IMG/VR virus record: IMGVR_UViG_3300033072_000303
Location: 1-64,000 of that record
DNA length: 64,000 nucleotides
DNA from: a virus
Taxonomy: Duplodnaviria; Heunggongvirae; Uroviricota; Caudoviricetes
Strand: one strand, 5' to 3'
The position numbers were made by a program, and so were the translations under genes. The notes below the pieces were generated by a model. The model made no database searches. It worked only from the letters and a program-made list of their open reading frames with translations, and was not told where the DNA came from. Shown piece after piece: positions 5,098 through 62,315 of this stretch. The first letter of the stretch is position 1, and each line of letters opens with the position of its first letter.

Positions 5098-5143
5098 ATT
5101 GTTACGGAACACAAAGTGTTGGAGTTCGAATCTCTGGACAATC
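5097..5143 (+). ncRNA. tRNA-like acceptor/T-arm minihelix (no D or anticodon arm)
   Basis: GATTGTT (5097-5103) pairs 7/7 with GACAATC (5137-5143), including one U-G pair. The arm TGGAG-TTCGAAT-CTCTG (5120-5136) is a canonical T-arm with a TTCGAAT loop. Confidence 0.3.
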
Positions 5144-5169
5144 TATATCAAATATTATAAAGGATTATT

Positions 5170-7972: not shown

Positions 7973-8071
7973 GGGCGCAAAGCATTGATGGTGATGCACT
8001 CCCCTCATAAGGGAGAATAAGGAGCGTGAGACACTTCTTCAACTAGGTTCAAGTCCGTAGTGTGCCCACCA
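7973..8071 (+). tRNA. Atypical tRNA-like gene with a CAT anticodon (Met/Ile2-type) and an encoded 3' CCA; over-long variable/T region
   Basis: Acceptor GGGCGCA (7973-7979) pairs with TGTGCCC (8061-8067), followed by A and CCA. D-stem GCAT/ATGC encloses an 8-nt loop containing GG. Anticodon stem CTCCC/GGGAG has the 7-nt loop CTCATAA (U33, CAT, A37). A GGTTCAAGTCC T-loop-like motif is present, but the T-stem pairs poorly and the 3' half carries about 23 extra nt. Confidence 0.4.
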
Positions 8072-17625: not shown

Positions 17626-17916
17626 ATGAGAACAAATAAAGTTAAAGTTTTAGATAGAACAAAAGTTCAAGAAGTTATTAAAGAGAACAAAGGGAAATTC
17701 TTTAGTGCTGTGTTCACAAAGGTAGACAATACTGAAAGAATGATTCACGGTAGAACAGGTGTTAAAAAATACCTAAAAGGTGGTAAAAATAACGTACAAA
17801 AACCTAGTAATTCTTTACTTAGTATTTGGGATAGAAGGGCTGAGGATTACAGAAGCTTGAATATCAAGACGATGTCTAGCTTAACGTTAAGAGGTGTAAA
17901 GTATAGAATTGTATAA
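17626..17916 (+). CDS. Hypothetical basic protein
   Basis: 96 aa, coupled to the RNA ligase gene. Confidence 0.45.
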   Translation: MRTNKVKVLDRTKVQEVIKENKGKFFSAVFTKVDNTERMIHGRTGVKKYLKGGKNNVQKPSNSLLSIWDRRAEDYRSLNIKTMSSLTLRGVKYRIV

Positions 17917-17931
17917 TATACCTTAAATTAT

Positions 17932-17953
17932 GCTTAAATTATGGTATTTAAGC
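17932..17953 (+). terminator. AT-rich hairpin (weak terminator)
   Basis: GCTTAAAT, loop tatggt, ATTTAAGC, then ATATATT. Confidence 0.3.
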
Positions 17954-17979
17954 ATATATTAAGTTAAAGTACATTTCCT

Positions 17980-18055
17980 TTAAGTTAAGTTTAAGCAGAA
18001 CTTGGGTATACTATCTTTACCGCTGAAAGGGAGCTAAACCTATTATATAGCTAGT
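17980..18055 (+). promoter_or_regulatory. Conserved promoter-like intergenic element, copy A
   Basis: 76 nt ttaagttaagtttaagcagaacttgggtatactatctttaccgctgaaagggagctaaacctattatatagctagt. It is 94% identical to copy B. It carries TTTACC..(19)..TATTAT and a TGGGTATACT extended -10-like motif, 37 nt before the ATG at 18093. Confidence 0.45.
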
Positions 18056-24783: not shown

Positions 24784-26093
24784 TGTTTAACACACCGAAT
24801 GTGTATGTTGTAGGTGGTGCTGTAAGAGATATTCTTATGGGTGTACAACCTAGAGATATAGACTACGTTGCAGTAGGTTTAACTGCACAGCAACTAATAG
24901 ATGATGGTTTCGTTCCTATAGATGCTGAATTCCCTGTTTTCCTTGACCCTAATGATAACTCAGAAGTAGCTTTGGCTCGTAGAGAAAAAAGCACTGGTAA
25001 AGGTTATAAAGACTTTACCACTGACACGTCTGATGTAACTTTAGAAGAAGATTTAAGAAGACGTGACTTAACAATTAATGCTATGGCTATGGATTCTGAA
25101 AAAACTATTATAGACCCATTTGGAGGACAGAAAGACCTACAGTCTAAAATATTAAGGCATACTTCTGACGCGTTCTTTGAAGACCCCTTAAGAGTATTAA
25201 GGTTAGCAAGATTTCAAACTAAGTACCCAGACTTTAGGATTCATGAAAGTACTATAGAAATTGTTAAAGCAAACAAAGACTCGCTTAAAGCTTTGACTCC
25301 TGAAAGAGTACAAAAAGAAATGTATAAAGCTTTAGAGTACAAGTACCCTAGTTTGTACTTTAGAACACTAGAGTTTTTAGGTGTTTTGGATTTAGTTCAT
25401 CCAGAACTTTATGATATGAAGCAATGTATTCAAAAACCTACACATCACGCAGAAGGTGACGTTTTTCTACACTCTATGATGGTATTAGATGAATGCGCTA
25501 AGTTATCTAAGGATGTTAACACTAGATTAGGAGCACTTTACCACGATATAGCAAAACCTATATGCGATGTTAAAAAACAAGGTTTTCATAAAGGTCACGA
25601 TGGTATTAATGTAGTACAACCTTTAGTACAAGAATTAAAAAATAGGTATAAGCTTCCTAATAAAGCTGAGAAGCGTATTGTCCAAGGTGCTTTATTTCAT
25701 ATGAAGCTACACAAATTAAAAGATATGAATTCTAGTACTATTGCAAGTATGTTTAACGATAAGTTCTTTCCAAAAACTAAAGAAGATTTAATTCAGTTAC
25801 TATGTATAAGCGTAGCTGATTCAAGAGGTAGAATCACAATCGGGTATGATAAAGAGGAAGTAAATGTTGATGCTATAGTTAATACTTTTAACGCTATTAA
25901 GGCGTATAGCCCAAAAGCTGAAATTGAAGAATATAACAAAAGACATCTTGATGATGGTAAAACTGCTAATCCAGAACTGATTAAACAAATGATTCATAAA
26001 TACTCTATTAAGTGTGTTGACGCTTGGTTAAGACCTCATTATACTATATCTAAAGATAAACAAGATAACTATACTAAACATCTCTTAAGTTAA
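24780..26093 (+). CDS. cca: CCA-adding tRNA nucleotidyltransferase with HD domain
   Basis: The class II head is VVGGAVRDILMG..RDIDYV. The HD domain is present as HHAEGDVFLHSMMVLD and LYHDIAKP. Confidence 0.75.
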   Translation: MMFNTPNVYVVGGAVRDILMGVQPRDIDYVAVGLTAQQLIDDGFVPIDAEFPVFLDPNDNSEVALARREKSTGKGYKDFTTDTSDVTLEEDLRRRDLTINAMAMDSEKTIIDPFGGQKDLQSKILRHTSDAFFEDPLRVLRLARFQTKYPDFRIHESTIEIVKANKDSLKALTPERVQKEMYKALEYKYPSLYFRTLEFLGVLDLVHPELYDMKQCIQKPTHHAEGDVFLHSMMVLDECAKLSKDVNTRLGALYHDIAKPICDVKKQGFHKGHDGINVVQPLVQELKNRYKLPNKAEKRIVQGALFHMKLHKLKDMNSSTIASMFNDKFFPKTKEDLIQLLCISVADSRGRITIGYDKEEVNVDAIVNTFNAIKAYSPKAEIEEYNKRHLDDGKTANPELIKQMIHKYSIKCVDAWLRPHYTISKDKQDNYTKHLLS

Positions 26094-26160
26094 GTTTAAG
26101 CAAACTTTCGGTAAACTATCTTTACCGCTGAAAGGGAGCTAAACCTATTATATAGCTAGT
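26085..26160 (+). promoter_or_regulatory. Conserved promoter-like intergenic element, copy B
   Basis: Same 76-nt element as copy A, with an identical 3' 45 nt. It overlaps the cca stop and ends 39 nt before the ATG at 26200. Confidence 0.45.
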
Positions 26161-26199
26161 TACTAGCTAATTTTCTAAAAATAATTTATAAGGATAAAT

Positions 26200-27823: not shown

Positions 27824-27862
27824 GGCTTAGTGCCTTACTAATAACAAAAAAAAAGGATATTA

Positions 27863-29182
27863 ATGAAAAAGGCTATGTTAATTTATGTAAGCTCTACTGG
27901 TAACGGTAAAGGTGGTAATACAGGAAATAATAACAAGTTCTATTATATTGAGCTAAAAGAATCAGGTGATGTGTATTTTAGGTATGGTAGAGTTGGTACT
28001 AGTGGTTCTGATGGAACAAAGCAAGGCGTTGGTCTAGCGGGTTTTCATAAGTTAATGAAAAGTAAAACTTCTAAAGGTTATGTAGAAGTTCCTTTAGACT
28101 TAGACGCAGACGTATCGTCAATAGATACTAATACTTCTGGTTCGGACATTATGATGATAGCATTATCTCAAATAAAGTCTGATGATGATTCTAAAGCACT
28201 TATTAAAAAACTTGTAGCACGTAATATACATAATATTACAAGTAACACAAAGATTACATTTAATGCTAGTACAGGATTATTTAAAACTCCGTTAGGTGTT
28301 GTTACTAAAGAGGGTATTGACAAAGCTGAAAGTATCTTAGATGAGCTTTCTAAGATACTTGCGAGACCTACTCTTGATTCTAGTTATATAACATACGAAG
28401 TGGATATTAGAAATTACTCTGAACAGTATTACTGTATCATCCCAACCACTGTTGATAACTTAAGAAGTATCTACTCACACATTTATAACAAAGATGCTTT
28501 ATCTAAACAGTATGACATTTGTTCTGCGTTAAGACAGAGCATAGATATTTTAGATAAAGATAAGCTTAAAGCTATACAAGCCGCTCAGGCTGACACAAGT
28601 ATTCCAGTACTGTTTAATACATCTTTAGTGAAGCTTACTGATAGTAAAGAGTTCGATAGAATAGAAAGGTATTTTGAGAAGTCTAAAAACTCACAACACG
28701 GTCGTACTACTTCTAAAGCTAAAATTAAAAATATATATTGTATAAATATAAAATCAGATGATGATGCGTATAGACACGATTTAACTAATCAGATGGAGTT
28801 ATGGCATGGTACTAAGGTAGTTAACATCTTAAGTATATTAAAGTCAGGTCTGTTAATGCCAAAGTATAGTCCAGGTTCTGTTACAGGTTATATGTTTGGA
28901 CAAGGTTTATATTTTTCTAACCAATCATCTAAGTCATTAAATTACTGTGATGGTATGTACTGGAATAACTCGAATAGGAGTGATAATTTTATCTATATGT
29001 TTGTTGCTAATATAGCTATGGGTAACTACCAAGTACCTAAAGGAAGTACATCAAAATTACCTGATAATGGTTATGACTCTTATTGGGCACAGCCTGGTAA
29101 GTCTGGTATAATGAATGACGAAATGATTGTGTTCAAAAATGAACAAATACAATTAAAGTACTTATTAGAAATAGAGGTTTAA
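27863..29182 (+). CDS. Poly(ADP-ribose) polymerase homologue (WGR domain plus PARP catalytic domain)
   Basis: The N-terminal WGR-like segment reads KFYYIELKESGDVYFRYGRVG. The C-terminus ELWHGTKVVNILSILKSGLLMP..GYMFGQGLYFSNQSSKSLNYC..NDEMIVFKNEQIQLKYLL aligns with PARP1 ELLWHGSR..GYMFGKGIYFAD..SANYC..YNEYIVY. The H-Y-E triad is intact. Confidence 0.75.
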   Translation: MKKAMLIYVSSTGNGKGGNTGNNNKFYYIELKESGDVYFRYGRVGTSGSDGTKQGVGLAGFHKLMKSKTSKGYVEVPLDLDADVSSIDTNTSGSDIMMIALSQIKSDDDSKALIKKLVARNIHNITSNTKITFNASTGLFKTPLGVVTKEGIDKAESILDELSKILARPTLDSSYITYEVDIRNYSEQYYCIIPTTVDNLRSIYSHIYNKDALSKQYDICSALRQSIDILDKDKLKAIQAAQADTSIPVLFNTSLVKLTDSKEFDRIERYFEKSKNSQHGRTTSKAKIKNIYCINIKSDDDAYRHDLTNQMELWHGTKVVNILSILKSGLLMPKYSPGSVTGYMFGQGLYFSNQSSKSLNYCDGMYWNNSNRSDNFIYMFVANIAMGNYQVPKGSTSKLPDNGYDSYWAQPGKSGIMNDEMIVFKNEQIQLKYLLEIEV

Positions 29183-30689: not shown

Positions 30690-33393
30690 AGAACTAAAAT
30701 TAATACCAAATTCAACACCTGATACAGCAGTACTAATAAAAGATTACGATGTTACTGAAAAGAATAAAACAAACTTAATGTATAGGTACATTCAAAAGTT
30801 AACAGCTTTAGGTGTTGAAAAACCAGGATTTAGATTTACATTTTTAGGGTTAGTACAAAACCCAGACTCTAAGAAAAAAGTAAATAAAACAGTGGCTTTA
30901 GAGTGTTTAGGTAATATCCTAGAGCACTGTGACATTCAAGGTATAACTACATTATTATGTACTGACGCTACGTATTTTCAGCTACTTACAGGTAGAAGTA
31001 AATTAGAAGAAAGTATTGATGGAGTGTATAAAGTAGTGATAACGGGTTTTGAGCATATTACTGTGTTGCCTAGTTTACACTATAACGCTTTAATAATGGC
31101 TCCACAAAAAGAATCAGTACTTGAAAAATCGCTTAAAGTACTAGCTATGCACTTAAACGGAAGCTATTCCAAACCTGGTGCAGATGTACTTAAAGATTAC
31201 ACTAAGTGTTATTCAGCAAACGAGTTAAAGAGAGTATTAAACGAATACATGGTTCTCCCAGAAATAACTTGTGATATTGAGGCTACTCATTTAAAGTTTT
31301 ATAAATCTGAGTTACTTACAATAGCCTTTGGTAAAGATAAGCACACCGCTATGACTTGTGCTGTACATCATTTGTATCATAATCAGCTAGAGTCAAATAG
31401 TATTAAACAAGTACTTAAAGAATTCTTTATTAACTATAAAGGTAAAGTATGGTTTCATAACGCACTATTTGACGTTAAGCAACTAACATACAGACTATTT
31501 ATGAGGAGTTTAGACGACTTTACAGGGATGCAAGAAGGTTTAGATGCTTTCGAGAATGTACACGATACATTTATGGTTGCTTACTTAGCTAAGAACTCAA
31601 CGTACCGTCAAGGGTTAGGATTAAAAGAACTATCTAAAGAGTTTATGGGTGAATACGCAGAGGATGTTAAAGAGGCAATAAAAGTTCCGTTAGAAGACTT
31701 AATGCTGTATAACGCAAAAGACTGCTGTGCTACTTGGTATGTACTAGATACGTATAGACCTATAATGATTCAAGATGACCAACAGTATGTGTATGACACA
31801 ATAATGCAACCTAGTATGAAGCCATTGCTTAAGATGATGCTTACTGGTTTGCCAATAGACTTAGGAAGAACCGAAGAGGCTAGAATCGAGCTACAAGCTA
31901 AACTAGATGATGCAGTAAATACCCTTAATAAGTCACACTATGTTAAGCGTGCTGTTTCAGTTTTAAAGTATAATGCTGCTGAAAAGTACAATGCTACACA
32001 TAAGACTAAAAAGATAAATGCAAATGATGTTGAACTGGAGTTTAATCCTAACTCATCAGACCAATTAAGACTATTATTATTTGAAATCTTAGGGTTTGAA
32101 GAAATAGAGAAAACTAAAGCTGGTAAGTCTAGTACTAAAAGAAATTTTATAGAGGAATACCTAGCAGAGGCTAAAGCTGACGGCGAGTCTGATGTAGTTT
32201 CTTGCTTAGAGGCTTTAGTAAATGTTTCTCAGATAAGTATTATATTGAACACTTTTATAACAGCTTTTGAAGAGCTTAGTGTTGAGCATCCAAGTGGTTA
32301 TAAATTCCTTAAGGGTAATTTAAAACTAGGTGGAACACAATCAGGAAGACTGTCTAGTTCTGAACCTAACTTACAAAACTTACCATCTGGTTCAAAGTAT
32401 GGTAAAATTATTAAGAACTGCTTTGTTGCACCAAAAGGTTGGCTGTTCGCTGGAGCAGACTTTAGCGCCCTCGAAGATAGAATAGGGGCAATCCTAAGTA
32501 ACGATATGAATAAGACAAAGGAATTTGCCTACGGGTTTGACGGTCATAGTTTACGTGCTTTAGCATTCTTTCCAGAAGAGCTACCAGAAGGCTTATCTAT
32601 TGATTCACTAGAGGATAATAAACTTATAAAGAAACAATACGGTGACATTAGAGGTAAGTCAAAAGGACCATCGTTTGCAATGCAATACGGGTGTGGTCCT
32701 GGAAAAATACAACAGTTACTAAAATGCTCTAAAGCAAAAGCTGAAGAAGTCTACTCAGCGTTTCATAATCTATATTCAGGGTTATCTAAATTTGCTCAAG
32801 TTAATAAAATCCAAGGTATGACTAATGGGTATGTAACAGGAGCCTTTGGATTAAGACTTAGAACTCCTAAGCTGAAAGCACACAGAGCTGGTACTAAAGA
32901 GTCTACCGAGGTAGGTTCTGAAGCGCGTTCTGCCTCTAATATGGTTACACAGTCTTGGGGTATGTTGATGAATAGAGCTTTAATTGAGTTTAATCAGAGA
33001 CTTGAAAACTCAGAATTCAAACATAAAGTTAGACTTATTAATACTATACACGATGCTGGTTATCTATTAGTTAAAGCTGAGCCAGAAGTGGTAGAGTGGG
33101 TTAATATTAACTTTGTAGAGTGCATGAAATGGCAGGACGGATTAATTGCTTCTGATGAAGTTAAAATGGAGGCTGAAGTAGACTTTGGTCTAGATTGGGC
33201 ACATCAAGAAACGTTACATAACAACGCGTCTAAAGAGGAGTGTAAAGCTTTTATAGATGCTATTAATATGTATGACTCAGTTAAACATCTTGAGTATAAC
33301 AATCAACCAGTAAAATTTAACGTTGTGTATAAACTAGCACTAGAAGGTTTTGACAATCTATCAAAATTAATAACAAAATTAAGCGAAGTTTAA
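30682..33393 (+). CDS. Family A DNA polymerase with 3'-5' exonuclease domain
   Basis: Exo I is TCDIEATH, Exo II is WFHNALFDVKQL, Exo III is YNAKD. Pol motif A is ADFSALEDRIGA and motif B is RGKSKGPSFAMQYGCG. Motif C reads IHDAG, HDA rather than HDE. An N-terminal extension of about 190 aa is unassigned. Confidence 0.85.
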   Translation: MVKELKLIPNSTPDTAVLIKDYDVTEKNKTNLMYRYIQKLTALGVEKPGFRFTFLGLVQNPDSKKKVNKTVALECLGNILEHCDIQGITTLLCTDATYFQLLTGRSKLEESIDGVYKVVITGFEHITVLPSLHYNALIMAPQKESVLEKSLKVLAMHLNGSYSKPGADVLKDYTKCYSANELKRVLNEYMVLPEITCDIEATHLKFYKSELLTIAFGKDKHTAMTCAVHHLYHNQLESNSIKQVLKEFFINYKGKVWFHNALFDVKQLTYRLFMRSLDDFTGMQEGLDAFENVHDTFMVAYLAKNSTYRQGLGLKELSKEFMGEYAEDVKEAIKVPLEDLMLYNAKDCCATWYVLDTYRPIMIQDDQQYVYDTIMQPSMKPLLKMMLTGLPIDLGRTEEARIELQAKLDDAVNTLNKSHYVKRAVSVLKYNAAEKYNATHKTKKINANDVELEFNPNSSDQLRLLLFEILGFEEIEKTKAGKSSTKRNFIEEYLAEAKADGESDVVSCLEALVNVSQISIILNTFITAFEELSVEHPSGYKFLKGNLKLGGTQSGRLSSSEPNLQNLPSGSKYGKIIKNCFVAPKGWLFAGADFSALEDRIGAILSNDMNKTKEFAYGFDGHSLRALAFFPEELPEGLSIDSLEDNKLIKKQYGDIRGKSKGPSFAMQYGCGPGKIQQLLKCSKAKAEEVYSAFHNLYSGLSKFAQVNKIQGMTNGYVTGAFGLRLRTPKLKAHRAGTKESTEVGSEARSASNMVTQSWGMLMNRALIEFNQRLENSEFKHKVRLINTIHDAGYLLVKAEPEVVEWVNINFVECMKWQDGLIASDEVKMEAEVDFGLDWAHQETLHNNASKEECKAFIDAINMYDSVKHLEYNNQPVKFNVVYKLALEGFDNLSKLITKLSEV

Positions 33394-33431
33394 TGTAATT
33401 AAAGTATAATATTACTTTTAAAAGGAGAACA

Positions 33432-38186: not shown

Positions 38187-39211
38187 TGAGTAATTTATTA
38201 AACAGAGGAACACCAGTACCAGTGTATAAAGAAGCTACTGGTATGAAGTACCCACAATTCGACAAATACACAGAGTCATTAATGAATATGTTCTGGATGT
38301 TTAACGCAGTTGAACTTGGGCAGGATATTGAAGATTATAGAAAAGCATCACCTGAAGAGAAACTGTTTATACAAAATATAATGAAACTATTTACTCAGAA
38401 TGAGGTTATAGTTTCTAATGGGTACGTTAAGTTAGCTAGTATATTTAAACCGAACGAAGTGCAAAACTGGTTTAATTACGCTAATGGAACAGAAGTTATG
38501 CACCAAAAAGCCTATAGTTTATTCATAGAAACCTTAGGACTGCCTGATACAATATACACAGACTTCCTAGACATTAACGTTATGAGTACAAAAACTGGGT
38601 ATTTAGATAAGGCTAAAGTTAAAAAGTTTGAAGAATACAAAGCTATGGGTATGACCGATGCTGAAGTAGACAAAGAGTTCAGAAGAGCTGTAGCTAGAAT
38701 GTTAGCACTATACGGTGGTGGTGCTGAGTTAGTTTCGTTGTACGCACAATTTGCTATGCTTTTAGCATTCCAGTTTCAAGGTAAATACCCAGGTTTATGT
38801 CAGATTGTTGAATACTCGATTAGAGATGAGTATATGCACGGTACAGGAAACTGTGATGTATTTAGAACATATATTGCAGAGAATCCTGATATATTTGATG
38901 ATGAACTTAAGTTCGACATCTACGAGGGGATGAGAGAGTTAGTTTCATATGAAGAAGCTACAGTAGACTTTGTAAATCCCCCTCATATGAACTCAGATGA
39001 GTGTAAACAGTATATTAAACACCAAGCGGATGAAGCATTAAAACTATTAGGTATGAAACCTAATTATAATGTTAAAAACCCATTTAAGTTTATGGACGAA
39101 GTTACTGGAACAATCTTAACAGATTTCTTTAGTGGTAAAGTTACAAGCTACTCTAGAAAGATTACAGGAAGTAAGTCAGATTTAAGAGCAAAAATAAAAA
39201 GTTTAAGCTAG
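38186..39211 (+). CDS. nrdB: Ribonucleotide reductase small subunit (diiron/tyrosyl radical R2)
   Basis: EVMHQKAYSLF provides the ExxH iron ligands and the radical Tyr. RDEYMHGTG matches E. coli RDEALHLTG. Confidence 0.8.
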   Translation: MSNLLNRGTPVPVYKEATGMKYPQFDKYTESLMNMFWMFNAVELGQDIEDYRKASPEEKLFIQNIMKLFTQNEVIVSNGYVKLASIFKPNEVQNWFNYANGTEVMHQKAYSLFIETLGLPDTIYTDFLDINVMSTKTGYLDKAKVKKFEEYKAMGMTDAEVDKEFRRAVARMLALYGGGAELVSLYAQFAMLLAFQFQGKYPGLCQIVEYSIRDEYMHGTGNCDVFRTYIAENPDIFDDELKFDIYEGMRELVSYEEATVDFVNPPHMNSDECKQYIKHQADEALKLLGMKPNYNVKNPFKFMDEVTGTILTDFFSGKVTSYSRKITGSKSDLRAKIKSLS

Positions 39212-39223
39212 GTTTAATCAAAG

Positions 39224-39272
39224 TTTGGCTATACTCTATTTATCGCCAAGCGGGGGTTAAACCTATTATATA
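39224..39272 (+). promoter_or_regulatory. Promoter-like element, diverged copy C
   Basis: TTTGGCTATACTCTATTTATCGCCAAGCGGGGGTTAAACCTATTATATA shares the GG-TATACT-TTTAyCGC and TAAACCTATTATATA blocks with copies A and B. It lies 10 nt before the phoH ATG. Confidence 0.35.
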
Positions 39273-39282
39273 AAGGATAGTT

Positions 39283-41486: not shown

Positions 41487-41493
41487 TTTGTTA

Positions 41494-41518
41494 GAGAGCC
41501 TTACGAGGCTCTTTATAC
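41494..41518 (+). terminator. Rho-independent terminator
   Basis: GAGAGCC, loop ttacga, GGCTCTT, then TATAC. Same GAGrGC/GCyCTC style as the terminators at 5075 and 12085. Confidence 0.5.
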
Positions 41519-41556
41519 AGGATACTAAAAGTAGACTGAAATAACAAAGGAGTAAT

Positions 41557-43882: not shown

Positions 43883-44865
43883 AATACATATACTTTGTAG
43901 ATACTAAACTAATATGTTACTACTTATTCCAAAGAGGTTCTAGTATAACTGGTATGTATGATAAGATAGCACAACTTATTTATAATTTCCCTAAAGGTGA
44001 AATATACTTAGGTTGGGATATTGGTAAATCCAGTTACAGATTAGGTATATCTCCAACGTATAAAGGGCATAGACAGGCTGAAAAAGAAAAGCTATCACAA
44101 GAAGAGCAAGAAGCTCTGGTAAATTTTAATATAGAGTATCTTAAAATGGCTGAATTAGCCGATTTAATCCCAGTACACAACTTAAAGGTTAGTGGGGTTG
44201 AATGTGATGATATGTGTTCTATATTGGCTAAAAAGTATGAGAATAAGACTGAGTATACTGTATACCTCGTAACAGCAGATATGGACTGGATACACTCAGT
44301 AGTAAATACTAGTAATGTATTCATAATTGATGTGTATAATGGTGGTTCAGTTATCGACTCTAAGTACGTTGAGCAGACTTACAACTTAGACACAAGAAAA
44401 AAGTTTACAGTACTAAAATCTATTCTTGGTGATAAATCAGATAATATTAAGTTCTGTACTAATATAGGTCCAGTTAAAGCTAAAGAAATATTTGATAAAA
44501 TATATCTAAAGTACAAAGACCCTACAGTAGACGAGATAATACTGGAGATAGAAAAGTACCTAGCTGATAAAGAGGCGGATAGGATTAAACGAAAGTTGAA
44601 AACAAGTATATCTATACATAGTGACCACACTAGCGTAGGTAGAACAACAGTTAAAGAAGCTTTTTTAGCAAACTTAAGTATAGCTGACCCTTTCCAAGAT
44701 ACTAGTAATTTAACAGATGAGCAGCTTATAGCTTTTAATAAATGCTTAGAAAGAGTCCCTCCTAAAAGTATATCATTTGATAAAATACTAGATGCTAGTA
44801 TAGAGAGTTTAGGGTATGCTCTACAGTTTGGTCATAGGGCTTCTAAAGTATTTAAGGTTGTATAA
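43879..44865 (+). CDS. 5'-3' exonuclease / flap endonuclease (RNase H-like, FEN family)
   Basis: FEN family acidic clusters are LGWDIGKSSYR, VECDDM and VTADMDW. The motif ILGDKSDNI is present. Confidence 0.6.
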   Translation: MKYIYFVDTKLICYYLFQRGSSITGMYDKIAQLIYNFPKGEIYLGWDIGKSSYRLGISPTYKGHRQAEKEKLSQEEQEALVNFNIEYLKMAELADLIPVHNLKVSGVECDDMCSILAKKYENKTEYTVYLVTADMDWIHSVVNTSNVFIIDVYNGGSVIDSKYVEQTYNLDTRKKFTVLKSILGDKSDNIKFCTNIGPVKAKEIFDKIYLKYKDPTVDEIILEIEKYLADKEADRIKRKLKTSISIHSDHTSVGRTTVKEAFLANLSIADPFQDTSNLTDEQLIAFNKCLERVPPKSISFDKILDASIESLGYALQFGHRASKVFKVV

Positions 44866-45155
44866 TGAATGAGGTAATGATTGCAGAATTTTATAATAGA
44901 CTAAAAACTGAGCTAGGTGTATCTATAAGGGTAGCCAGAGAGATTCATAAAGGGTATAAAGCAGTATATTTAGCTTGTATAGCTAATGGTGAGTCCTTTC
45001 AACTACCTGGAATAGGTTTTATAGAACTACGTCCTTACACAGATACACAAGCTCGTAACCCTAAGACTAAAAGTATGGTTGAGCGTCAGGCTAAATATAA
45101 GATAATATTTTCAGCGTCAAAAACTGCTAAACGACTAATAGGAAAAAGGGTATGA
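44865..45155 (+). CDS. HU/IHF-family DNA-binding protein
   Basis: Beta-arm signature ELRPYTDTQARNPKTKSMV. 96 aa. Confidence 0.7.
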   Translation: MNEVMIAEFYNRLKTELGVSIRVAREIHKGYKAVYLACIANGESFQLPGIGFIELRPYTDTQARNPKTKSMVERQAKYKIIFSASKTAKRLIGKRV

Positions 45156-47460: not shown

Positions 47461-47498
47461 TTAAGTTTAATTTAAGTATAACTTGGTATAATGCTATC
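47461..47498 (+). promoter_or_regulatory. Sigma-70-type extended -10 promoter within a diverged copy of the 5' half of the repeat element
   Basis: ttaagtttaatttaagtataacTTGGTATAATgctatc contains TGnTATAAT at 47484-47492 and resembles the 5' part of copies A and B. Confidence 0.4.
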
Positions 47499-47623
47499 AA
47501 GTTTTTAAGGAGAGTCATGTTATAGATTATGATATAAGTAATTAATAAAGAATGTAAGCGAGTAAGGTGAATAGTCTAACAATATTAAAAGTTACAAAGT
47601 AAAGATAAAAATAAGGAAACACA

Positions 47624-52322: not shown

Positions 52323-52330
52323 TATAAATA

Positions 52331-52365
52331 ATCCCGTATTATGTCAAAGTGCGGGATGATTTTAA
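52331..52365. terminator. Hairpin at the convergent gene junction (possible bidirectional terminator)
   Basis: ATCCCGTA / TGCGGGAT stem with one G-U pair, followed by GATTTT on the + strand and preceded by an A/T run read from the - strand. Confidence 0.4.
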
Positions 52366-52379
52366 CAAAAACGCTATAT

Positions 52380-52510
52380 ATAAGAGTAGCGAATCGGAAG
52401 ATGAAGCTATACTATATAGCTATAGATTAGATAGTTAATAACTAGTTACTATATAGTTATTAGATATAGTATAGATACTTACTATTATAGAGTATAGACT
52501 AGATAGTACA
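52380..52510. repeat. Iterated TATAG/CTATA-rich region with palindromes at the strand-switch point
   Basis: At least 12 TATAG/CTATA pentamers lie within about 130 nt. The perfect palindrome TAACTAGTTA sits inside ATAACTAGTTACTAT. No ORF is present. Confidence 0.45.
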
Positions 52511-52529
52511 GGCGATTCTTAAAGTTAGC

Positions 52530-57771: not shown

Positions 57772-60470
57772 TATATCACCTGCCCATTGATTGTGTCTAA
57801 TGCTGAGTTTATATCACCTATTAAACTATCTACTTCAGTTTTAGTATAAGTATCAGATATACCATAACCACTTAATGTTGTTGGGTTAGTTCCTGCTGTA
57901 ACCCTACCTTTCGCATCCACCGTTACAGATTTATACGTACCTGCTGTAACTCCGCTGTTTGCCAATGTAGCTGTTCCAGTAACGTTAGCTAATCCATTAA
58001 ACGCCGCTGAAGTCCATGTAACATCCCCAGTCATTCCTATTGTTCTGCCAGTAGCTAAAGCAGAAGCTGTTGAAATGTTACCTGTAATCTGATTTCCATT
58101 TATTTCAATATAATTACTATTACTATATAGACGTAACGTACCATTAGAGTCTAAACTTTGAATTCCTGACCTAAATACGCCACCAGACGTTCCAGATAAC
58201 AACCAAGTAGCAGAACTTGATGTACCCATTATAACATTAAGGGCGCCAGTACTAGTACCACTTGTAGCACCCCAAGATGTGCTTAAACCTGAAGATTGTA
58301 TAAACGATTGCGCACCTAGTGTTGTAGAAATACTAACGTCAGCTGAACCATCAAAGTTTACACTACCAACAATAGCTCCAGCTAAAGCAATATTTCTAGA
58401 AGTTTGTAACTTCGTTGCTGTTCCTGCATTACCGGAAATAGAACCACTAGGAATAACATAATCTGTTCCAGCTGTTGCTGCAGTCATTGCTCCAGTTCCA
58501 TTACCTTTAACTATACCAGTTAAAGTTGTAGCTCCAGTTCCTCCATTACCTACTGGTAATGTACCCGTTACACCTGGAGTTATATTTGCACTACCGTCAA
58601 ATGACGCACTTGCAGTTGAGCCTAAGTTAGTTTGAACTGTCCTAGCAGTTTGCAACGCAGTTGCTGTACCAGCGTTACCAGTAATAGTAGTTATATTAAC
58701 AACACCAGTTTGACCATTTACAGAGTCAACAGCTCCACTTGTTATGTAAACATATACAGAACCAGACCATCTATAAGTTTTATTAGTATCTAAAGCAACG
58801 TATATTTTTCCAGACTCACCTGTAGCTGGGAAACTAGCTTGATTAGCGAATTCTAAAACATCATCAACAAATGCAGGTAATCTCGCAGCATCAATAATAC
58901 CGGTTGTTATCTTACTTGCATCTAAAGATGGTATATCTGAAGCACTTAAAGACGTCCCTGAAGTAACCTGACCTTGCGCATTAGTTGTAACTTTTGTATA
59001 TGTACCAGCAGTTCCTACATTTGTTATTGCTACAGTAGGAGACCAACCTTCACCTGCTGTACCAGACACGGTGATACCTGTACCTTGAGTTAAACCCGCA
59101 ACATAATTTCCTGTTGTATCTGTACCTAAGGCTACTGAGTTAGCTGCAATAGTAGTAGTTATACTTGCGTTAGCCGACCCGTCAAAGTTTACAGTACCTG
59201 TTACATCACCTGTTAAAGATATACTTCTTGTTGTTTGTAGCTTAGTAGCTGTAGCTGCGTTTGCGTTTTCATTTAATGGATGTATTCTTATTTCTAAAAC
59301 CCCATTTGTCGCATGAGCACTAATAACAGCACAAACTATTATTTTAAGCTCAGTGCTACTAGGTACTACTTTTGTTAAACCAGTCCCATTAGGTTTAGCA
59401 TATAAAATATCCCCATCTGCCCAAGTTTCGCCATATAAACTCCCAGATGTATTTACACCACGTACTTTACCATCAATAGTAATAATACCATCAGCACCAG
59501 CTGCTATGTCTTGTGTAGCAACACCATACAGTAAGTGTGCTTCATTAAACCCACCAGTAAATGGTTTTACTTTTATTCTTCCGCTTGCACCTATAGTACC
59601 GTCGAACATTACAGGTGTACCATTAGTTATGATACTCGCCGTGCTATTTCTTACAGTCCTTATATTTTCTTGTCCTAGTTGAATAGAACTTCCGTTAAGC
59701 GTCCCTAGATTAACTGTATTTTCATCTGAGTTCCAAGTTAGCTGCCCTAAGTTAGGAGCTACGTTACCAGCAGTACTAAACCCTACGCTTGGTAATGAAC
59801 TTTGAACTTCAGATTTAGTATACACATCTAATAACGTAACTACCGACCAACCAGTTGAAGTTCTTACTTTCATTGCCTCTATAGTACTATTAAAGTACAG
59901 AGCACCTACTAATAAAGCCCCACCATCATTGTCAACAGTAGGGTCAGAAGCTTTTACTCCTAAGTACCTATCATCAAAACTATCATAACTAGCAGCAGCA
60001 GCATTAGCACTAGCTAAAGCATTCGCTGCACTTGTACTAGCCTCTGAGGCTTTTGTAGTAGCTGTTGTAGCAGAAGTCGTAGCAGAAGTTGCACTTGAAG
60101 CCGCACTAGTAGCACTTGAAGATGCACTAGTAGCACTTGAAGCAGCACTAGTAGCAGAAGTTGCAGCAGCATTTTTAGATGCTAAAGCATTAGTTTCTGA
60201 TGTAGCTGCAGCAGTTGCTTTAGTCGTTGCTGTAGTAGCACTTGTTGCTGCATTAGTTGCAGAAGTTGCAGCAGCATTTTTATATGCTAAAGCACTTGCA
60301 GCATCAGCTGCAGTAGCTGTTGTTATGCTTGTAGCAATACCATCATAAGTAGTCTCTACATACTCTTTAACATCGTCCATTAGTATATTAAGCTGTTCAT
60401 CAGCCTGCGCAATTAATGTATTACCATTAATCACAGCTGTTGTATTAAAATCAGGTATTACTATCGGCAT
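57771..60470 (-). CDS. Tail fibre protein (899 aa)
   Basis: An N-terminal Ala/Ser/Thr low-complexity stretch of about 110 aa, made of ATSA/SATS-type modules, is followed by a long beta-rich Gly/Thr/Asn fibre body. Confidence 0.6.
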   Translation of the reverse strand: MPIVIPDFNTTAVINGNTLIAQADEQLNILMDDVKEYVETTYDGIATSITTATAADAASALAYKNAAATSATNAATSATTATTKATAAATSETNALASKNAAATSATSAASSATSASSSATSAASSATSATTSATTATTKASEASTSAANALASANAAAASYDSFDDRYLGVKASDPTVDNDGGALLVGALYFNSTIEAMKVRTSTGWSVVTLLDVYTKSEVQSSLPSVGFSTAGNVAPNLGQLTWNSDENTVNLGTLNGSSIQLGQENIRTVRNSTASIITNGTPVMFDGTIGASGRIKVKPFTGGFNEAHLLYGVATQDIAAGADGIITIDGKVRGVNTSGSLYGETWADGDILYAKPNGTGLTKVVPSSTELKIIVCAVISAHATNGVLEIRIHPLNENANAATATKLQTTRSISLTGDVTGTVNFDGSANASITTTIAANSVALGTDTTGNYVAGLTQGTGITVSGTAGEGWSPTVAITNVGTAGTYTKVTTNAQGQVTSGTSLSASDIPSLDASKITTGIIDAARLPAFVDDVLEFANQASFPATGESGKIYVALDTNKTYRWSGSVYVYITSGAVDSVNGQTGVVNITTITGNAGTATALQTARTVQTNLGSTASASFDGSANITPGVTGTLPVGNGGTGATTLTGIVKGNGTGAMTAATAGTDYVIPSGSISGNAGTATKLQTSRNIALAGAIVGSVNFDGSADVSISTTLGAQSFIQSSGLSTSWGATSGTSTGALNVIMGTSSSATWLLSGTSGGVFRSGIQSLDSNGTLRLYSNSNYIEINGNQITGNISTASALATGRTIGMTGDVTWTSAAFNGLANVTGTATLANSGVTAGTYKSVTVDAKGRVTAGTNPTTLSGYGISDTYTKTEVDSLIGDINSALDTINGQVI

Positions 60471-60920: not shown

Positions 60921-62315
60921 TTAATCAACTCGGTATAATTTCCAGTTTATACCACCAGTAACTCTTCCATCACCCCATAATGCTTTAATGTATAACATTA
61001 CTTCTATACATCCTTCTGCATGACCTCCATCTGATGCACTTCCTGATGAGAACCCAGCGGCTACACCTAATTGGTGGTAAATACCGATTCTATATTGGTA
61101 GCTATACACGTACCCACCACCAATTCCTAAGTCCAACTGATATTTTCCACAAGGTGCAGTTGTATTATAGGTATTACCTGAGTCATATCCTGTGTTGAAC
61201 CACAACCACGTGTCACCAGTAAACTCACCAGGATTATAGTTACCTTGAGCTACTAAATACCTAGTTACGCTACCAGCACTATTAGCGTAATTAACGCTAA
61301 AGTTAGACGGGTTATACACGTACATTGCAGTACCATTACTACCACCCCATAACCATGGTGGTTGTCCTGTCTGACCAGACCAGTTAAAAGTCATAGCTGC
61401 TCCTGTACCACCACCTTGAGCAAGTGTAGAAGCCTTAGTTGCATTAGTAGCATTAGTAGCGTTAGTTGCATTAGTAGCGTTAGTTGCATTAGTTGCATTA
61501 GTAGCGTTAGTTGCATTAGTAGCGTTAGTTGCATTAGTTGCATTAGTTGCACTATCAGCCACTCTTGCAGAGTCCACCCTAACACCATATGTTTGACTTC
61601 CATTCCAACCCATTAACGTAGGGTATGTTGCACTCCATACATTAGTTGGTGTAGTGTTATTAACAGCAGTACCAGAAGGAGATAACCCTTTAGAGGCATC
61701 AAAAATAACATGATTATTACCATAGTTATTCCATGCTAACATATTAGCTACTGCCGAACTTCTATTAGTTGCCCAGTTACTAGCATCCCCAGATAGTGTT
61801 GTTGCAGCTCCAGTTAAGTTTGCTGTAATAGTACCAGCACTAAAGTTTCCACTAGCGTCACGTGCTACTATTGTACTTGCAGTATTAGTAGAACTCGAGT
61901 TCATACCATCGAGTAAATCTGCGTCTAACCCACTTCCAGTACCATCTACTGTTTTAATCTTTGTTAAAACGTCAGCAGCAGTATATGTAGTAGTATTTAG
62001 CTTTAATCCTAACTCATTATTTATTTTAGAAGCCGTCCATAAACTGTTTGTATCAGTACCAGTATCTAGAACTGTACACCCGTCTACTTTATCTACATCA
62101 ATCATGTACTTAGTAGCCATAGGATTCCACGCACTACCACTATATGTTTCCCAATACTTATTAGTATTATTCCATCTTTTTGCACCAGTAGGTAAGTTAG
62201 TAGGAGTTACCGTTGAGCTATCCAGCATTTGTAGTAAATCAGTATCCCTAGCCTTTAGCTCATTTAAAAAGTCACTATAAAGACTGGTTAAAGTTGGTTT
62301 TGCAAAATCTGCCAT
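60921..62315 (-). CDS. Tail fibre-like protein with (NAT)n repeat
   Basis: Gly/Thr/Asn-rich fibre composition with an internal stretch of at least 11 NAT repeats. Confidence 0.5.
   Translation of the reverse strand: MADFAKPTLTSLYSDFLNELKARDTDLLQMLDSSTVTPTNLPTGAKRWNNTNKYWETYSGSAWNPMATKYMIDVDKVDGCTVLDTGTDTNSLWTASKINNELGLKLNTTTYTAADVLTKIKTVDGTGSGLDADLLDGMNSSSTNTASTIVARDASGNFSAGTITANLTGAATTLSGDASNWATNRSSAVANMLAWNNYGNNHVIFDASKGLSPSGTAVNNTTPTNVWSATYPTLMGWNGSQTYGVRVDSARVADSATNATNATNATNATNATNATNATNATNATNATNATNATKASTLAQGGGTGAAMTFNWSGQTGQPPWLWGGSNGTAMYVYNPSNFSVNYANSAGSVTRYLVAQGNYNPGEFTGDTWLWFNTGYDSGNTYNTTAPCGKYQLDLGIGGGYVYSYQYRIGIYHQLGVAAGFSSGSASDGGHAEGCIEVMLYIKALWGDGRVTGGINWKLYRVD
61432..61548 (-). 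repeat. 9-bp tandem repeat (about 13 units) encoding (Asn-Ala-Thr)n
   Basis: The + strand shows gcattagta / gcgttagtt / gcattagtt units in head-to-tail array. Read on the - strand each is AAT GCT ACT. Confidence 0.7.

What the first reader, a model, noticed from the sequence alone, without database searches (positions are those of the whole stretch)
17980..18055. About 76-nt intergenic element repeated at 94% identity before two distant operons, with two diverged relatives
Copies at 17980-18055 and 26085-26160 differ at 5 of 76 positions and share an identical 45-nt 3' core (ctatctttaccgctgaaagggagctaaacctattatatagctagt). Each lies 37-39 nt upstream of an ATG with an AAGGATAA RBS. Diverged copies occur before phoH (39224-39272) and before the gene at 47624 (47461-47498), which carries a TGnTATAAT motif. 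The core reads as TTTACC-N19-TATTAT plus a TGGGTATACT block. This may be a promoter class for the phage's own sigma factor (33432) or for host sigma-70 with a non-optimal spacer. Nested palindromes inside it may be operator sites.
Basis: seen in the sequence. Interest (0 to 1): 0.6.

Follow-up and report, generated by a model that had tools for sequence, protein, structure and literature searches.

The report
Repeated phage promoter-plus-leader cassette
An uncultured phage places nearly identical copies of a host-type promoter, fused to a conserved 30-base start-of-message segment, in front of its DNA-replication operons; this is a fairly ordinary kind of phage control element, and the role of the extra segment is still open.

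Summary
The repeat is real. Positions 17980-18055 and 26085-26160 differ at 5 of 76 bases, share an exact 45-mer, and have sharp edges. A third in-register copy (72% identical) lies at 39203-39278.

The element has two parts:
- **Promoter module.** TTAAG-N4-6-TTTAAG-N10-11-(G)G-TAnAAT occurs at five gene starts (18093, 26200, 33432, 39283, 47624). It matches published Campylobacter-type sigma-70 promoters: gnTAnaAT, no TTGACA, phased signals at -27 and -38, and an aAGGa ribosome site.
- **Core.** CGCYrArs-GGGG-GTTAAACC-TTATATA starts about 2 nt after the predicted start site. It is present at three of the five sites.

Uncultured relatives carry the same cassette at the same sites. Copies are identical within a genome and diverged between genomes. 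At site 3 the cassette is 87% conserved where silent sites are about 45% identical.

The true -10 is their "TGGGTATACT block".

The core has no conserved RNA fold and no Rfam match. It always contains a Shine-Dalgarno-like purine run. My best guess, held weakly, is a 5'-leader ribosome-binding or stabiliser site. An operator is nearly as likely. Overall it is a new member of a known kind, of modest interest.

The parts
17979..18055 (+). Cassette copy 1, before the 107-aa gene, MazG, dNMP kinase ... CCA-enzyme operon. Phased TTTAAG/TTAAG/TTTAAG at 17979-17995. GGG+TATACT -10 at 18004-18012. Predicted start A at 18019. Core CCGCTGAAAGGGAGCTAAACC at 18020-18040. TATTATATA at 18041-18049.
26085..26160 (+). 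Cassette copy 2, before the DNA ligase, PARP-like ... PolA operon. It overlaps the stop codon of the upstream CCA-adding enzyme gene (26091-26093). -10 TAAACT at 26112-26117. Predicted start A at 26124. Core at 26125-26145. TATTATATA at 26146-26154.
26153..26169 (+). Terminator-like hairpin TAGCTAGT-T-ACTAGCTA followed by ATTTTCT, in the leader of copy 2 only. It overlaps the last 8 nt of the repeat.
39202..39278 (+). Cassette copy 3, before PIN-PhoH. TTTAAG at 39202-39207. TTTAAT at 39213-39218. GGC+TATACT with the -10 at 39230-39235. Predicted start A at 39242. Core TCGCCAAGCGGGGGTTAAACC at 39243-39263. TATTATATA at 39264-39272. True SD AAGGA at 39273-39277.
33379..33410 (+). Same promoter module without the core, before the FliA-like sigma gene (ATG 33432). 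The real SD lies about 4-11 nt after the predicted start (33417).
47461..47492 (+). Same promoter module without the core (TGGTATAAT), before the gene at 47624. Predicted start at 47499.
47507..47525 (+). Strong SD (AAGGAGAG) near the 5' end, followed by a two-codon mini-ORF ATG TTA TAG in the site-4 leader. The arrangement is conserved in two relatives (ATG AGA TAG; GTG AGG TAA).
17919..17966 (+). Imperfect inverted repeat (21-nt arms, 6-nt gap) carrying GCTTAAAT/ATTTAAGC, between the WYL_2 gene and copy 1. A counterpart exists in relative L006.

Best explanation
The element is a promoter-plus-leader cassette of an uncultured lytic phage, not a single odd promoter.

**Upstream half (about -40 to -7).** This is a promoter read by the host's main sigma factor, of the type described for Campylobacter and its relatives. 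It has a TAnAAT -10 preceded by G at -14/-13. It has no TTGACA -35. Instead TTTAAG motifs sit one helical turn apart, centred near -27 and -38. Five such promoters head the replication and nucleotide-metabolism operons of the + strand.

**Downstream half.** At three of the five promoters, transcription is predicted to start at an A 7 nt after the -10 and run straight into a conserved 30-nt segment: CGC-Y-purines-GGGG-GTTAAACC-TTATATA.

**Likely role of that segment.** I think it most likely acts in the nascent mRNA. Its purine run is a Shine-Dalgarno-like site about 8-18 nt from the 5' end. It could bind 30S subunits and protect or prime the long operon transcripts, as 5' stabilisers do in bacteria that lack RNase E.

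**Why copies match within a genome.** Recombination (gene conversion) between copies keeps them near-identical, while selection keeps the cassette conserved between genomes.

**Shown:** the repeat, its two-part anatomy, its conservation, the selection on it, and its concerted evolution.

**Inferred:** the sigma-70 assignment, the start site, a Campylobacterota-like host, and above all the leader's mechanism.

**Sub-confidences:** promoter-plus-leader cassette about 0.8; host-type sigma-70 promoter about 0.65; 5' ribosome-binding/stabiliser role of the core about 0.3.
For: **Promoter module**
- The pattern TTAAN{4,6}TTTAAKN{10,11}TAWAMT gives 5 hits against 0.08 expected. All are on the + strand and abut gene starts. 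The pattern was written from four of these sites; the fifth (33379) was new.
- The module is conserved at the same sites in relatives: before the ligase, the 107-aa gene, the sigma gene, PhoH, and site 4.
- Published C. jejuni sigma-70 promoters have -35 TTTAAGTnTT, TGn and TATAAT (PMC3824568).
- A second study describes gnTAnaAT 4-8 nt before the start, no -35 box, periodic signal at -17/-27/-38, and RBS aAGGa (PMC3847290). The window's TTTAAG motifs fall at -29..-24 and -40..-35, and its ribosome sites read AAGGA.
- E. coli-type -35/-10 pairs are not enriched: 87 found against 87.5 in shuffles, and 63 against 72.8.

**Selection**
- Between the window and L109, fourfold-degenerate sites are 43-46% identical. 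The 71-nt site-3 intergenic region is 87% identical with no indels.
- The distance from the -10 to CGC is 8 nt in every lineage except L011 (7 nt), although the sequence in between varies.

**Concerted evolution**
- L006 has a 62-nt tract identical at both sites that differs from the window's version.
- Copies 1 and 2 share six derived changes. Copy 3 keeps the form seen in L003, L014 and L109.
- Every Logan contig of the relatives breaks inside the element. The window's own Logan contig L001 starts exactly 30 nt before the end of the 45-mer, as expected for k=31.

**Leader**
- Every core variant keeps an anti-SD-complementary run: GGGAG, GGGGG, GAAGG, GAGGGG or GGGGAAG. Predicted duplex energies are -4.1 to -10.1 kcal/mol, mostly stronger than the real SDs. 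Only 4% of background windows reach -7.
- The unrelated site-4 leader has AAGGAG plus a two-codon mini-ORF at the same distance from the start, conserved in three genomes.
- The sigma promoter places the real SD at that same position.
- A strong SD without a start codon is a known 5' stabiliser where RNase E is absent (PMC3997798).
Against: - No transcript data exist. The start site and the sigma assignment rest on sequence grammar only.
- The host is unknown. No relative was found in cultured phages, IMG/VR, JGI metagenomes or GTDB genomes.
- The TTTAAG motifs could equally be sites for a phage activator.
- The stabiliser idea does not explain why CGC and GTTAAACC are the best-conserved bases of the core, while the purine run is the most variable part.
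- L006's SD-like run is weak (-4.1 kcal/mol).
- The core variants descend from one ancestor, so their shared SD-likeness is not many independent observations.
- Short dyads in the core, and its position from +2 to +27, fit a DNA operator just as well.
Confidence: 0.55

Rival explanations
1. The core is a DNA operator. A phage or host DNA-binding protein binds from +2 to +27 and blocks or times transcription from the three promoters. Copies within a genome match because they co-evolve with that protein.
For: - The core overlaps the start site, which is the classic operator position.
- GTTAAACC and CGC are the most invariant bases.
- There are two short dyads one helical turn apart: GCT-N-AGC and GGTT-N-AACC.
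- In some lineages only the centre base changes while the arms are kept: GGTT-C-AACC in L014/L087 and GCT-G-AGC in L109.
- No conserved RNA fold was found.
- The phage encodes an HU-like DNA-binding protein at 44865-45155.
Against: - The dyads are only 3-4 bp per arm.
- They are broken in the window's own copies 1 and 2 (AGCT-A-AACC, and GCT...AGC spread 7 nt apart), and also in L002 and L011.
- No sequence-specific regulator (HTH, RHH) was recognised among the window's ORFs.
- The variable purine run keeps its SD-like character, which a DNA site has no reason to do.
Confidence: 0.22
2. The TTTAAG motifs are binding sites for a phage-encoded activator. That would make this a phage 'middle' promoter class, analogous to T4 MotA-box promoters, rather than plain host promoters.
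For: - The architecture is the same as at T4 middle promoters: a good -10 plus a box near -30, set 10-11 bp from the -10. T4's MotA box is centred at -30 and lies 12+/-1 bp from the -10 (PMC2988021).
- All five sites serve replication, recombination and nucleotide-metabolism genes, the typical middle class.
- Other intergenic regions of the window do not obviously carry the motif.
Against: - The motif equals the published Campylobacter -35 consensus TTTAAGTnTT and sits at the published periodic positions, so no phage factor is needed.
- The box sequence is unrelated to TGCTTtA.
- No MotA or AsiA homologue was detected in the window by Pfam or PHROGs. About 22 kb of the source contig lies outside the window and was not searched.
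Confidence: 0.2
3. The core is a second, phage-specific promoter in tandem with the host-type one. It would be read by the phage FliA-like sigma or by a phage RNA polymerase, with TTATATA as the melting or -10 region and the start just after it. This is the spirit of the first reader's proposal.
For: - The block is about 30 nt, highly conserved, and ends in TATATA followed by a purine in most variants.
- Its sequence is lineage-specific, as with T7-type promoters.
- The phage encodes its own sigma factor.
- GCTAAG-N16-17-TATATA spacing can be read into most variants.
Against: - The would-be -35 is the most variable part, and the would-be spacer (GTTAAACC) is the most conserved.
- TTATATA is lost in L003, and TATTAT is not conserved.
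- At copy 3 and in L109 the start would fall on or inside the SD.
- There is no CGAT-type sigma-28 -10.
- No phage RNA polymerase gene is found in 64 kb.
- There are only three copies, never apart from the host-type promoter, and always at a fixed 8-nt offset from its -10.
- None occurs in the 12 kb of late genes.
Confidence: 0.1
4. The core is a processive-antitermination or pause site, working like lambda nut, HK022 put, or RfaH ops/JUMPstart. It would load a factor onto RNA polymerase at the head of long operons.
For: - It sits in the leader of operons 8-13 kb long.
- Copies are alike within a genome and differ between genomes, as with nutL/nutR.
- A -10-like TTATATA at about +25 could cause sigma-dependent pausing.
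- Hairpins lie inside the downstream operons, in the gaps 27824-27862 and 41487-41556.
Against: - No conserved RNA hairpin was found, which nut and put require.
- No NusG/RfaH-like or N/Q-like gene was recognised.
- The internal hairpins lack clear U-tracts.
Confidence: 0.08
5. The core is a structured cis-regulatory RNA (a riboswitch or sRNA).
For: It is a conserved leader segment in front of nucleotide-metabolism genes.
Against: - There is no Rfam hit at gathering threshold in the window, and none near threshold around copy 1.
- Fold z-scores run from -0.8 to +0.9.
- RNAalifold predicts zero pairs on 10 variants.
Confidence: 0.03

Closest known systems
Campylobacter jejuni-type (Campylobacterota) sigma-70 promoters (Wosten 1998; Petersen 2003; Porcelli 2013)
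   Same: Both have a gnTAnaAT -10 and no TTGACA -35. TTTAAG(T) lies near -35/-38 with a 10-11 bp periodic signal (-27, -38). The RBS is aAGGa. Promoters sit tightly against the upstream genes.
   Different: Here the TTTAAG motif is unusually sharp and duplicated. The setting is a phage whose host is unknown. No start sites have been mapped.
T4 middle promoters (MotA box at -30 plus sigma-70 -10)
   Same: Both pair a -10 element with a box 10-13 bp upstream in place of a -35. Both serve replication and nucleotide-metabolism genes. Read-through from upstream operons also reaches these genes.
   Different: The box sequence is unrelated. No MotA or AsiA homologue was found. The box matches a host promoter consensus, so an activator may not be needed.
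PeSL cassettes of T4-like phages (Arbiol 2010; Comeau 2014)
   Same: Both are short composite regulatory cassettes containing a promoter. Both are repeated nearly identically within a genome and act as substrates for homologous recombination.
   Different: PeSLs are terminator-plus-early-promoter units that flank variable accessory ORFs in hyperplastic regions. Here the cassette is promoter-plus-leader, sits before conserved core replication operons at conserved positions, and shows no sign of gene shuffling.
STAB-SD and polypurine 5' mRNA stabilisers (B. thuringiensis cryIIIA; phage SP82 in B. subtilis)
   Same: Both have a Shine-Dalgarno-like purine run in a 5' leader with no associated start codon, close to the 5' end of a long mRNA.
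   Different: Stabilisation is untested here. The most conserved bases of the core (CGC, GTTAAACC) lie outside the purine run. The host's RNase set is inferred, not known.
Lambda nutL/nutR and HK022 putL/putR
   Same: Both occur as paired, near-identical leader elements just downstream of promoters of long operons, and are lineage-specific in sequence.
   Different: nut and put act as RNA hairpins. No conserved hairpin exists here.

Membership tests
Campylobacterota-type sigma-70 promoter | -10 element gnTAnaAT (TAnAAT with G two bases upstream) | tested here: met
   The window sites read GGGTATACT, CGGTAAACT, GGCTATACT, AAGTATAAT and TGGTATAAT. Relatives read TGGTACAAT, GGGTAAAAT and AGGTATAAT. 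Consensus from PMC3847290.
Campylobacterota-type sigma-70 promoter | No TTGACA -35; instead TTTAAGTnTT near -35 and a 10-11 bp periodic signal (-27, -38) | tested here: met
   TTTAAG lies at -29..-24 and at -40..-35 relative to the predicted start. A standard -35/-10 scan does not call the element and finds no enrichment. Literature.
Campylobacterota-type sigma-70 promoter | Transcription starts 4-8 nt downstream of the -10, driven by host RpoD holoenzyme | not testable with these tools
   Needs 5'-end mapping or in vitro transcription. An A lies 7 nt after the -10 in nearly all variants.
Campylobacterota-type sigma-70 promoter | The host belongs to Campylobacterota | tested here: inconclusive
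   No close relative exists in cultured phages or in GTDB genomes. Only indirect support: 32% GC, an AAGGA RBS, and sample names that look like sewage studies.
T4-type middle promoter | Activator box centred near -30, 12+/-1 bp from a sigma-70 -10 | tested here: met
   TTTAAG lies 10-11 bp from the -10. T4 definition from PMC2988021.
T4-type middle promoter | MotA-box sequence (a/t)(a/t)(a/t)TGCTTtA and MotA/AsiA proteins | tested here: not met
   The box is TTTAAG. There are no MotA or AsiA hits among about 55 window ORFs scanned with Pfam, PHROGs or NCBIfam.
PeSL cassette | Composite terminator stem-loop plus early promoter | tested here: inconclusive
   Only copy 1 has an upstream stem-loop (17919-17966). 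Copies 2 and 3 overlap the stop codon of the upstream gene, with no terminator.
PeSL cassette | Many copies flanking variable ORFs, with indels at the cassettes between close relatives | tested here: not met
   There are three copies, located before conserved core genes at the same positions in relatives.
STAB-SD / polypurine 5' stabiliser | SD-like sequence complementary to the 16S 3' end in the leader, not used for initiation of the downstream gene | tested here: met
   Predicted anti-SD duplexes are -4.1 to -10.1 kcal/mol at +5..+18 in all variants. No AUG, GUG or UUG follows at initiation distance.
STAB-SD / polypurine 5' stabiliser | Increases mRNA half-life through 30S binding that blocks 5' exonuclease | not testable with these tools
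   Needs half-life and toeprint assays. Concept from PMC3997798.
nut/put-type antitermination RNA | Conserved RNA stem-loop(s) in the leader | tested here: not met
   RNAalifold predicts 0 pairs on 10 variants. Single-sequence z-scores are about 0.
Sigma-28 (FliA)-type promoter for the phage sigma | TAAA-N15-(GC)CGATAA | tested here: not met
   There is no CGAT-type -10 at the right spacing after either TAAA/TAAG in any variant. The sigma is FliA-like only weakly: 47 bits against a cut-off of 201.
Canonical sigma-70 promoter as read by the first stage (TTTACC-N19-TATTAT) | Two hexamers 16-18 bp apart, conserved among orthologous sites | tested here: not met
   The spacer is 19 bp. Neither hexamer is conserved in L006, L014, L087, L011 or L109.
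Any Rfam family | Score at or above the gathering threshold | tested here: not met
   There are 0 hits in the window. Around copy 1 only two chance-level hits appear (E 3.6 and 6.2).

The most novel reading that the evidence does not exclude
The 30-nt core is a new, clade-specific cis-acting control site that co-evolves with an unidentified phage factor. It could be an operator, or a nut/ops-like loading site for an antitermination or RNA-binding protein. It would coordinate the three replication operons of a previously undescribed group of phages, probably of Campylobacterota such as sewage Arcobacter. Within-genome identity would then reflect co-evolution with the factor and not only gene conversion.
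Probability: 0.25. Interest if true: 0.55.

Novelty: new member of a known kind. Interest (0 to 1): 0.35.

Why it matters
- It gives a usable promoter and start-site model for an uncultured phage clade with no cultured relative.
- It suggests a host type from promoter and ribosome-site grammar alone.
- It provides a clean example of concerted evolution of regulatory cassettes within phage genomes, which also explains why k-mer assemblies of these phages always break at the same places.
- The conserved core is under clear purifying selection and has no known counterpart. It is therefore a defined, testable candidate for a new leader or operator element, though nothing yet shows it works in an unusual way.

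Tried and rejected
1. **Anti-SD sequestration.** UAUCUUUA at -5..+1 pairs with the SD in copies 1 and 2. The segment is not conserved (TAGGAAC in L006) and lies upstream of the predicted start.
2. **Conserved leader RNA structure, riboswitch or sRNA.** No Rfam hit, z-scores about 0, RNAalifold empty.
3. **Pairing or dyad between the -30 TTTAA element and TTAAAC in the core.** It is striking in copy 3 (25-nt arms, 76% complementary) and in L006b. The register differs between genomes, and L014/L087 changed TTAAAC to TTCAAC without changing TTTAAG.
4. **TTTACC-N19-TATTAT promoter.** Not conserved.
5. **Sigma-28-type or T7-type second promoter.** The conservation pattern is wrong and no phage RNA polymerase gene was found.
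6. **A mini-ORF AUU-AUA-UAR in the core.** AUU is present in only 5 of 11 variants.
7. **Extended pairing of GGGGGUUMAACC with the 16S 3' region** (down to -18 kcal/mol). I discount it from my own knowledge of 16S structure: the GGUU it pairs with lies in helix 45 and is not in the free tail.
8. **Searches for relatives.** INPHARED (DNA and protein), IMG/VR (pattern and protein), JGI metagenomes (one chance hit, L012) and GTDB genomes all lacked the clade.
9. **Host inference from the tail protein.** The single hit was to a Curvibacter phage at 44%, which is uninformative.

Full report
**1.
The 45-mer CTATCTTTACCGCTGAAAGGGAGCTAAACCTATTATATAGCTAGT occurs exactly twice, at 18011-18055 and 26116-26160. 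None is expected in shuffles. The 76-nt copies 17980-18055 and 26085-26160 differ at 5 positions. All five lie between the upstream motifs and the -10. Identity falls to random level immediately outside: 15/40 on the left and 14/40 on the right. The repeat finder independently returns the family with a third in-register copy before PhoH, at 39188-39278. That copy matches copy 1 at 55 of 76 positions. Each of copies 1 and 2 lies 37-39 nt upstream of an ATG preceded by AAGGATAA.

**2. Genomic setting.**
The window is part of a large, AT-rich (about 32% GC) phage genome.
- From 1 to 52.3 kb the + strand carries metabolic, replication and nucleotide-metabolism genes. These include PRPP synthetase, NAMPT, rIIA/rIIB, RNA ligase, MazG, dNMP kinase, a helicase, a CCA-adding enzyme, an ATP-dependent ligase, a WGR-PARP protein, PolA, a sigma factor, ThyX, RNR, PIN-PhoH, DnaB, primase and SbcCD.
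- From 52.5 kb the - strand carries tail and structural genes.
- No cultured phage is close. Nucleotide searches of the copy-1 region find nothing, and the best protein identities are 28-50%.
- IMG/VR, JGI metagenomes and GTDB genomes also lack the clade.
- Relatives do exist in Logan and ENA assemblies, at 57-86% ligase identity and 53-89% PhoH identity.

**3. The element has two modules.**
A regular-expression scan found that the left third of the repeat recurs at five places: 17980, 26085, 33379, 39203 and 47461. The shared form is TTAAG-N4-6-TTTAA(G/T)-N10-11-TA(T/A)A(A/C)T. A formal search gives 5 hits against 0.08 expected. All are on the + strand and end 20-130 nt before a gene start. 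The pattern was derived from four of these sites, so the figure is partly circular. The site before the sigma gene was a new find.

Aligned across genomes it reads CGC-Y-RARSR-GGGG-GTTAAACC-(T)TTATATA. It is present at only three of the five sites.

**4.
The conserved features across the window and relatives (L006, L007, L011, L014, L087, L107, L109) are:
- two TTAAG/TTTAAG motifs about 10 bp apart;
- an 11-bp spacer ending in GG;
- TAnAAT;
- exactly 8 nt (7 in L011) before CGC.

With an A 7 nt after the -10 taken as +1, the TTTAAG motifs are centred near -27 and -38.

This matches what is published for Campylobacter jejuni sigma-70 promoters:
- a -35 region TTTAAGTnTT, a TGn/-16 region, and a -10 TATAAT (PMC3824568);
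- from dRNA-seq, gnTAnaAT 4-8 nt upstream of the start, no -35 box, periodic signal at -7/-17/-27/-38, and RBS aAGGa (PMC3847290).

The phage's ribosome sites are uniformly (A)AAGGA. E. coli-style -35/-10 pairs are not enriched, and the standard scan does not call the element.

By contrast, TTTACC is replaced by GGAACC, GTTTAA or TGTATA in relatives. TATTAT is replaced by TTTATA, CTTATA, TTTTAT or CTTTAT, even in the 89% relative L109. At copy 3, a start after TATTAT would remove the SD.

The phage sigma is a weak FliA-like match, 47 bits against a cut-off of 201. The element has no sigma-28-type -10.

I therefore read the module as a strong host sigma-70 promoter, and I infer a Campylobacterota-like host. 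Some ENA sample labels (MUNK22, LIAN20) look like sewage and gut study codes to me, and from my own knowledge Arcobacter is common in sewage. This is inference, not a result. A T4 MotA-style activator binding the -30 box (PMC2988021) cannot be excluded.

**5. The cassette is under selection and evolves in concert.**
Between the window and L109, fourfold-degenerate sites in the flanking RNR-beta and PhoH genes are 43% and 46% identical, which is near saturation. The 71-nt intergenic cassette is 87% identical with no indel.

Copies are homogenised within genomes:
- L006 has a 62-nt tract identical at both orthologous sites (before the 113-aa gene and before the ligase). That tract differs from the window's version at many positions.
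- In the window, copies 1 and 2 share six derived substitutions in the core. Copy 3 keeps the form seen in L003, L014, L087 and L109.
- Every Logan contig of a relative that carries the ligase begins inside the element.
- The window's own Logan contig L001 starts exactly 30 nt before the end of the 45-mer, as expected for a k=31 graph breaking at an exact repeat. So an exact repeat of at least 31 nt probably exists in each of those genomes. Strain-level variation in a metagenome could cause some of these breaks instead.

Gene conversion between copies is the simplest cause. Co-evolution with a trans factor is the alternative.

**6. What the core does.**
No RNA structure is supported:
- Single-sequence folds have z-scores from -0.8 to +0.9.
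- RNAalifold predicts no pair on ten variants.
- Rfam gives nothing.

Ideas tied to copies 1 and 2 alone fail in relatives. These include anti-SD pairing, the CGGTAAA/TTTACCG dyad, and pairing of the -30 box with TTAAAC.

Two observations bear on mechanism.

(a) Every variant keeps a purine run complementary to the anti-SD, at about +8 to +18: GGGAG, GGGGG, GAAGG, GAGGGG or GGGGAAG. Predicted duplexes are -4.1 to -10.1 kcal/mol, usually stronger than the true SDs of the downstream genes. Only 4% of background 28-nt windows reach -7. The two promoters without the core have the same feature by other means:
- The sigma promoter has the true SD at +4..+11.
- The site-4 leader has AAGGAG followed by a two-codon mini-ORF.
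- That mini-ORF is conserved in three genomes whose silent sites are saturated: ATG TTA TAG, ATG AGA TAG and GTG AGG TAA.

In bacteria without RNase E, a strong SD near the 5' end, even without a start codon, stabilises long mRNAs (PMC3997798). From my own knowledge, Campylobacterota rely on RNase J and RNase Y.

(b) Against this, the best-conserved bases are CGC and GTTAAACC, not the purine run. These form short dyads, GCT-N-AGC and GGTT-N-AACC. In some lineages the centre base changes while the arms are kept. That fits a protein-binding DNA site at +2..+27. The dyads are broken in copies 1 and 2, and no sequence-specific regulator was recognised.

I commit, weakly, to a 5'-leader ribosome-binding/stabiliser role (about 0.3), with an operator close behind (about 0.22).

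A tandem phage-specific promoter is less likely:
- Its would-be -35 is the most variable part.
- Its would-be spacer is the most conserved part.
- It never occurs apart from the host-type promoter.
- No phage RNA polymerase gene is seen.

**7. Comparison with known systems.**
The promoter module meets the sequence criteria of Campylobacter-type sigma-70 promoters. It resembles T4 middle promoters in architecture only. The cassette resembles PeSLs (PMC2839356, PMC4122927) in being a repeated, recombining regulatory unit. It is not a terminator-promoter unit flanking variable genes. It resembles nut/put in placement and lineage specificity, but it lacks RNA hairpins.

**8. Verdict.**
This is a real, selected, repeated promoter-plus-leader cassette. 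The promoter part is ordinary. The conserved core is unexplained, and nothing yet shows it is exotic. Interest is modest.

Noticed in passing
window 47566-47580 (and L109, L107 site-4 leaders): An invariant 15-nt block GGTGAATAGTCTAAC lies in the long leader of the gene at 47624. It is conserved in three genomes whose silent sites are saturated. It could be another cis-element or part of a small unannotated gene.
   Followed up: partly
window 47517-47525: A two-codon mini-ORF (ATG TTA TAG) lies behind a strong SD, about 19 nt from the predicted start. It is conserved as ATG AGA TAG and GTG AGG TAA in relatives.
   Followed up: partly
window 52323-52529: The convergent gap between the + and - gene blocks holds a GC hairpin (CCCGTATTATGTCAAAGTGCGGG) and then about 130 nt of reiterated TATAG/CTATA/TAGAT motifs with dyad symmetry. 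It could be a bidirectional terminator, an origin, or a packaging site.
   Followed up: no
window 27863-29182: The phage encodes a WGR + PARP-regulatory + PARP-catalytic protein, conserved in relatives (L001, L006, L010, L011, L087). This is an unusual ADP-ribosyltransferase for a phage.
   Followed up: no
window 61400-61588 and 59997-60290 (- strand genes): Long arrays of 9-nt (and 21/63-nt) tandem repeats lie inside tail-fibre-like genes. They encode repeated tripeptide units.
   Followed up: no
window 7973-8071 and 5100-5150: The tRNA-Met call is 99 nt, long for a tRNA. At about 5110-5145 the sequence GTTGGAGTTCGAATCTCTGGACAATC looks like a tRNA T-arm and acceptor fragment that ARAGORN did not call.
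   Followed up: no
L002 5528-6343; L005 4352-8779; L013 2980-6495; L109 12209-14491: Relatives differ in selfish-element content. PolA is split by an HNH gene or carries an intein. DnaB and the RNR large subunit carry LAGLIDADG or intein insertions. The window's copies are uninterrupted.
   Followed up: no
Logan contigs L001-L005, L008, L013, L015, L091: All k-mer assemblies of this phage clade break at the same point 46-117 nt upstream of the ligase gene, because of the repeated cassette. This is a practical warning for recovering these genomes.
   Followed up: yes
L014 636-672 and L087 1463-1499: In one lineage a 7-bp inverted repeat CCCGTAC...GTACGGG brackets the TTAAG/TTTAAG motifs of the promoter. 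It is absent from the window.
   Followed up: no
window 17626-17916: A WYL_2 (Sm-like SH3 barrel) protein of 96 aa is encoded directly upstream of copy 1. It holds the same position in relatives (L006, and the ENA 107-kb contig). It is a possible nucleic-acid-binding candidate, but untested.
   Followed up: no
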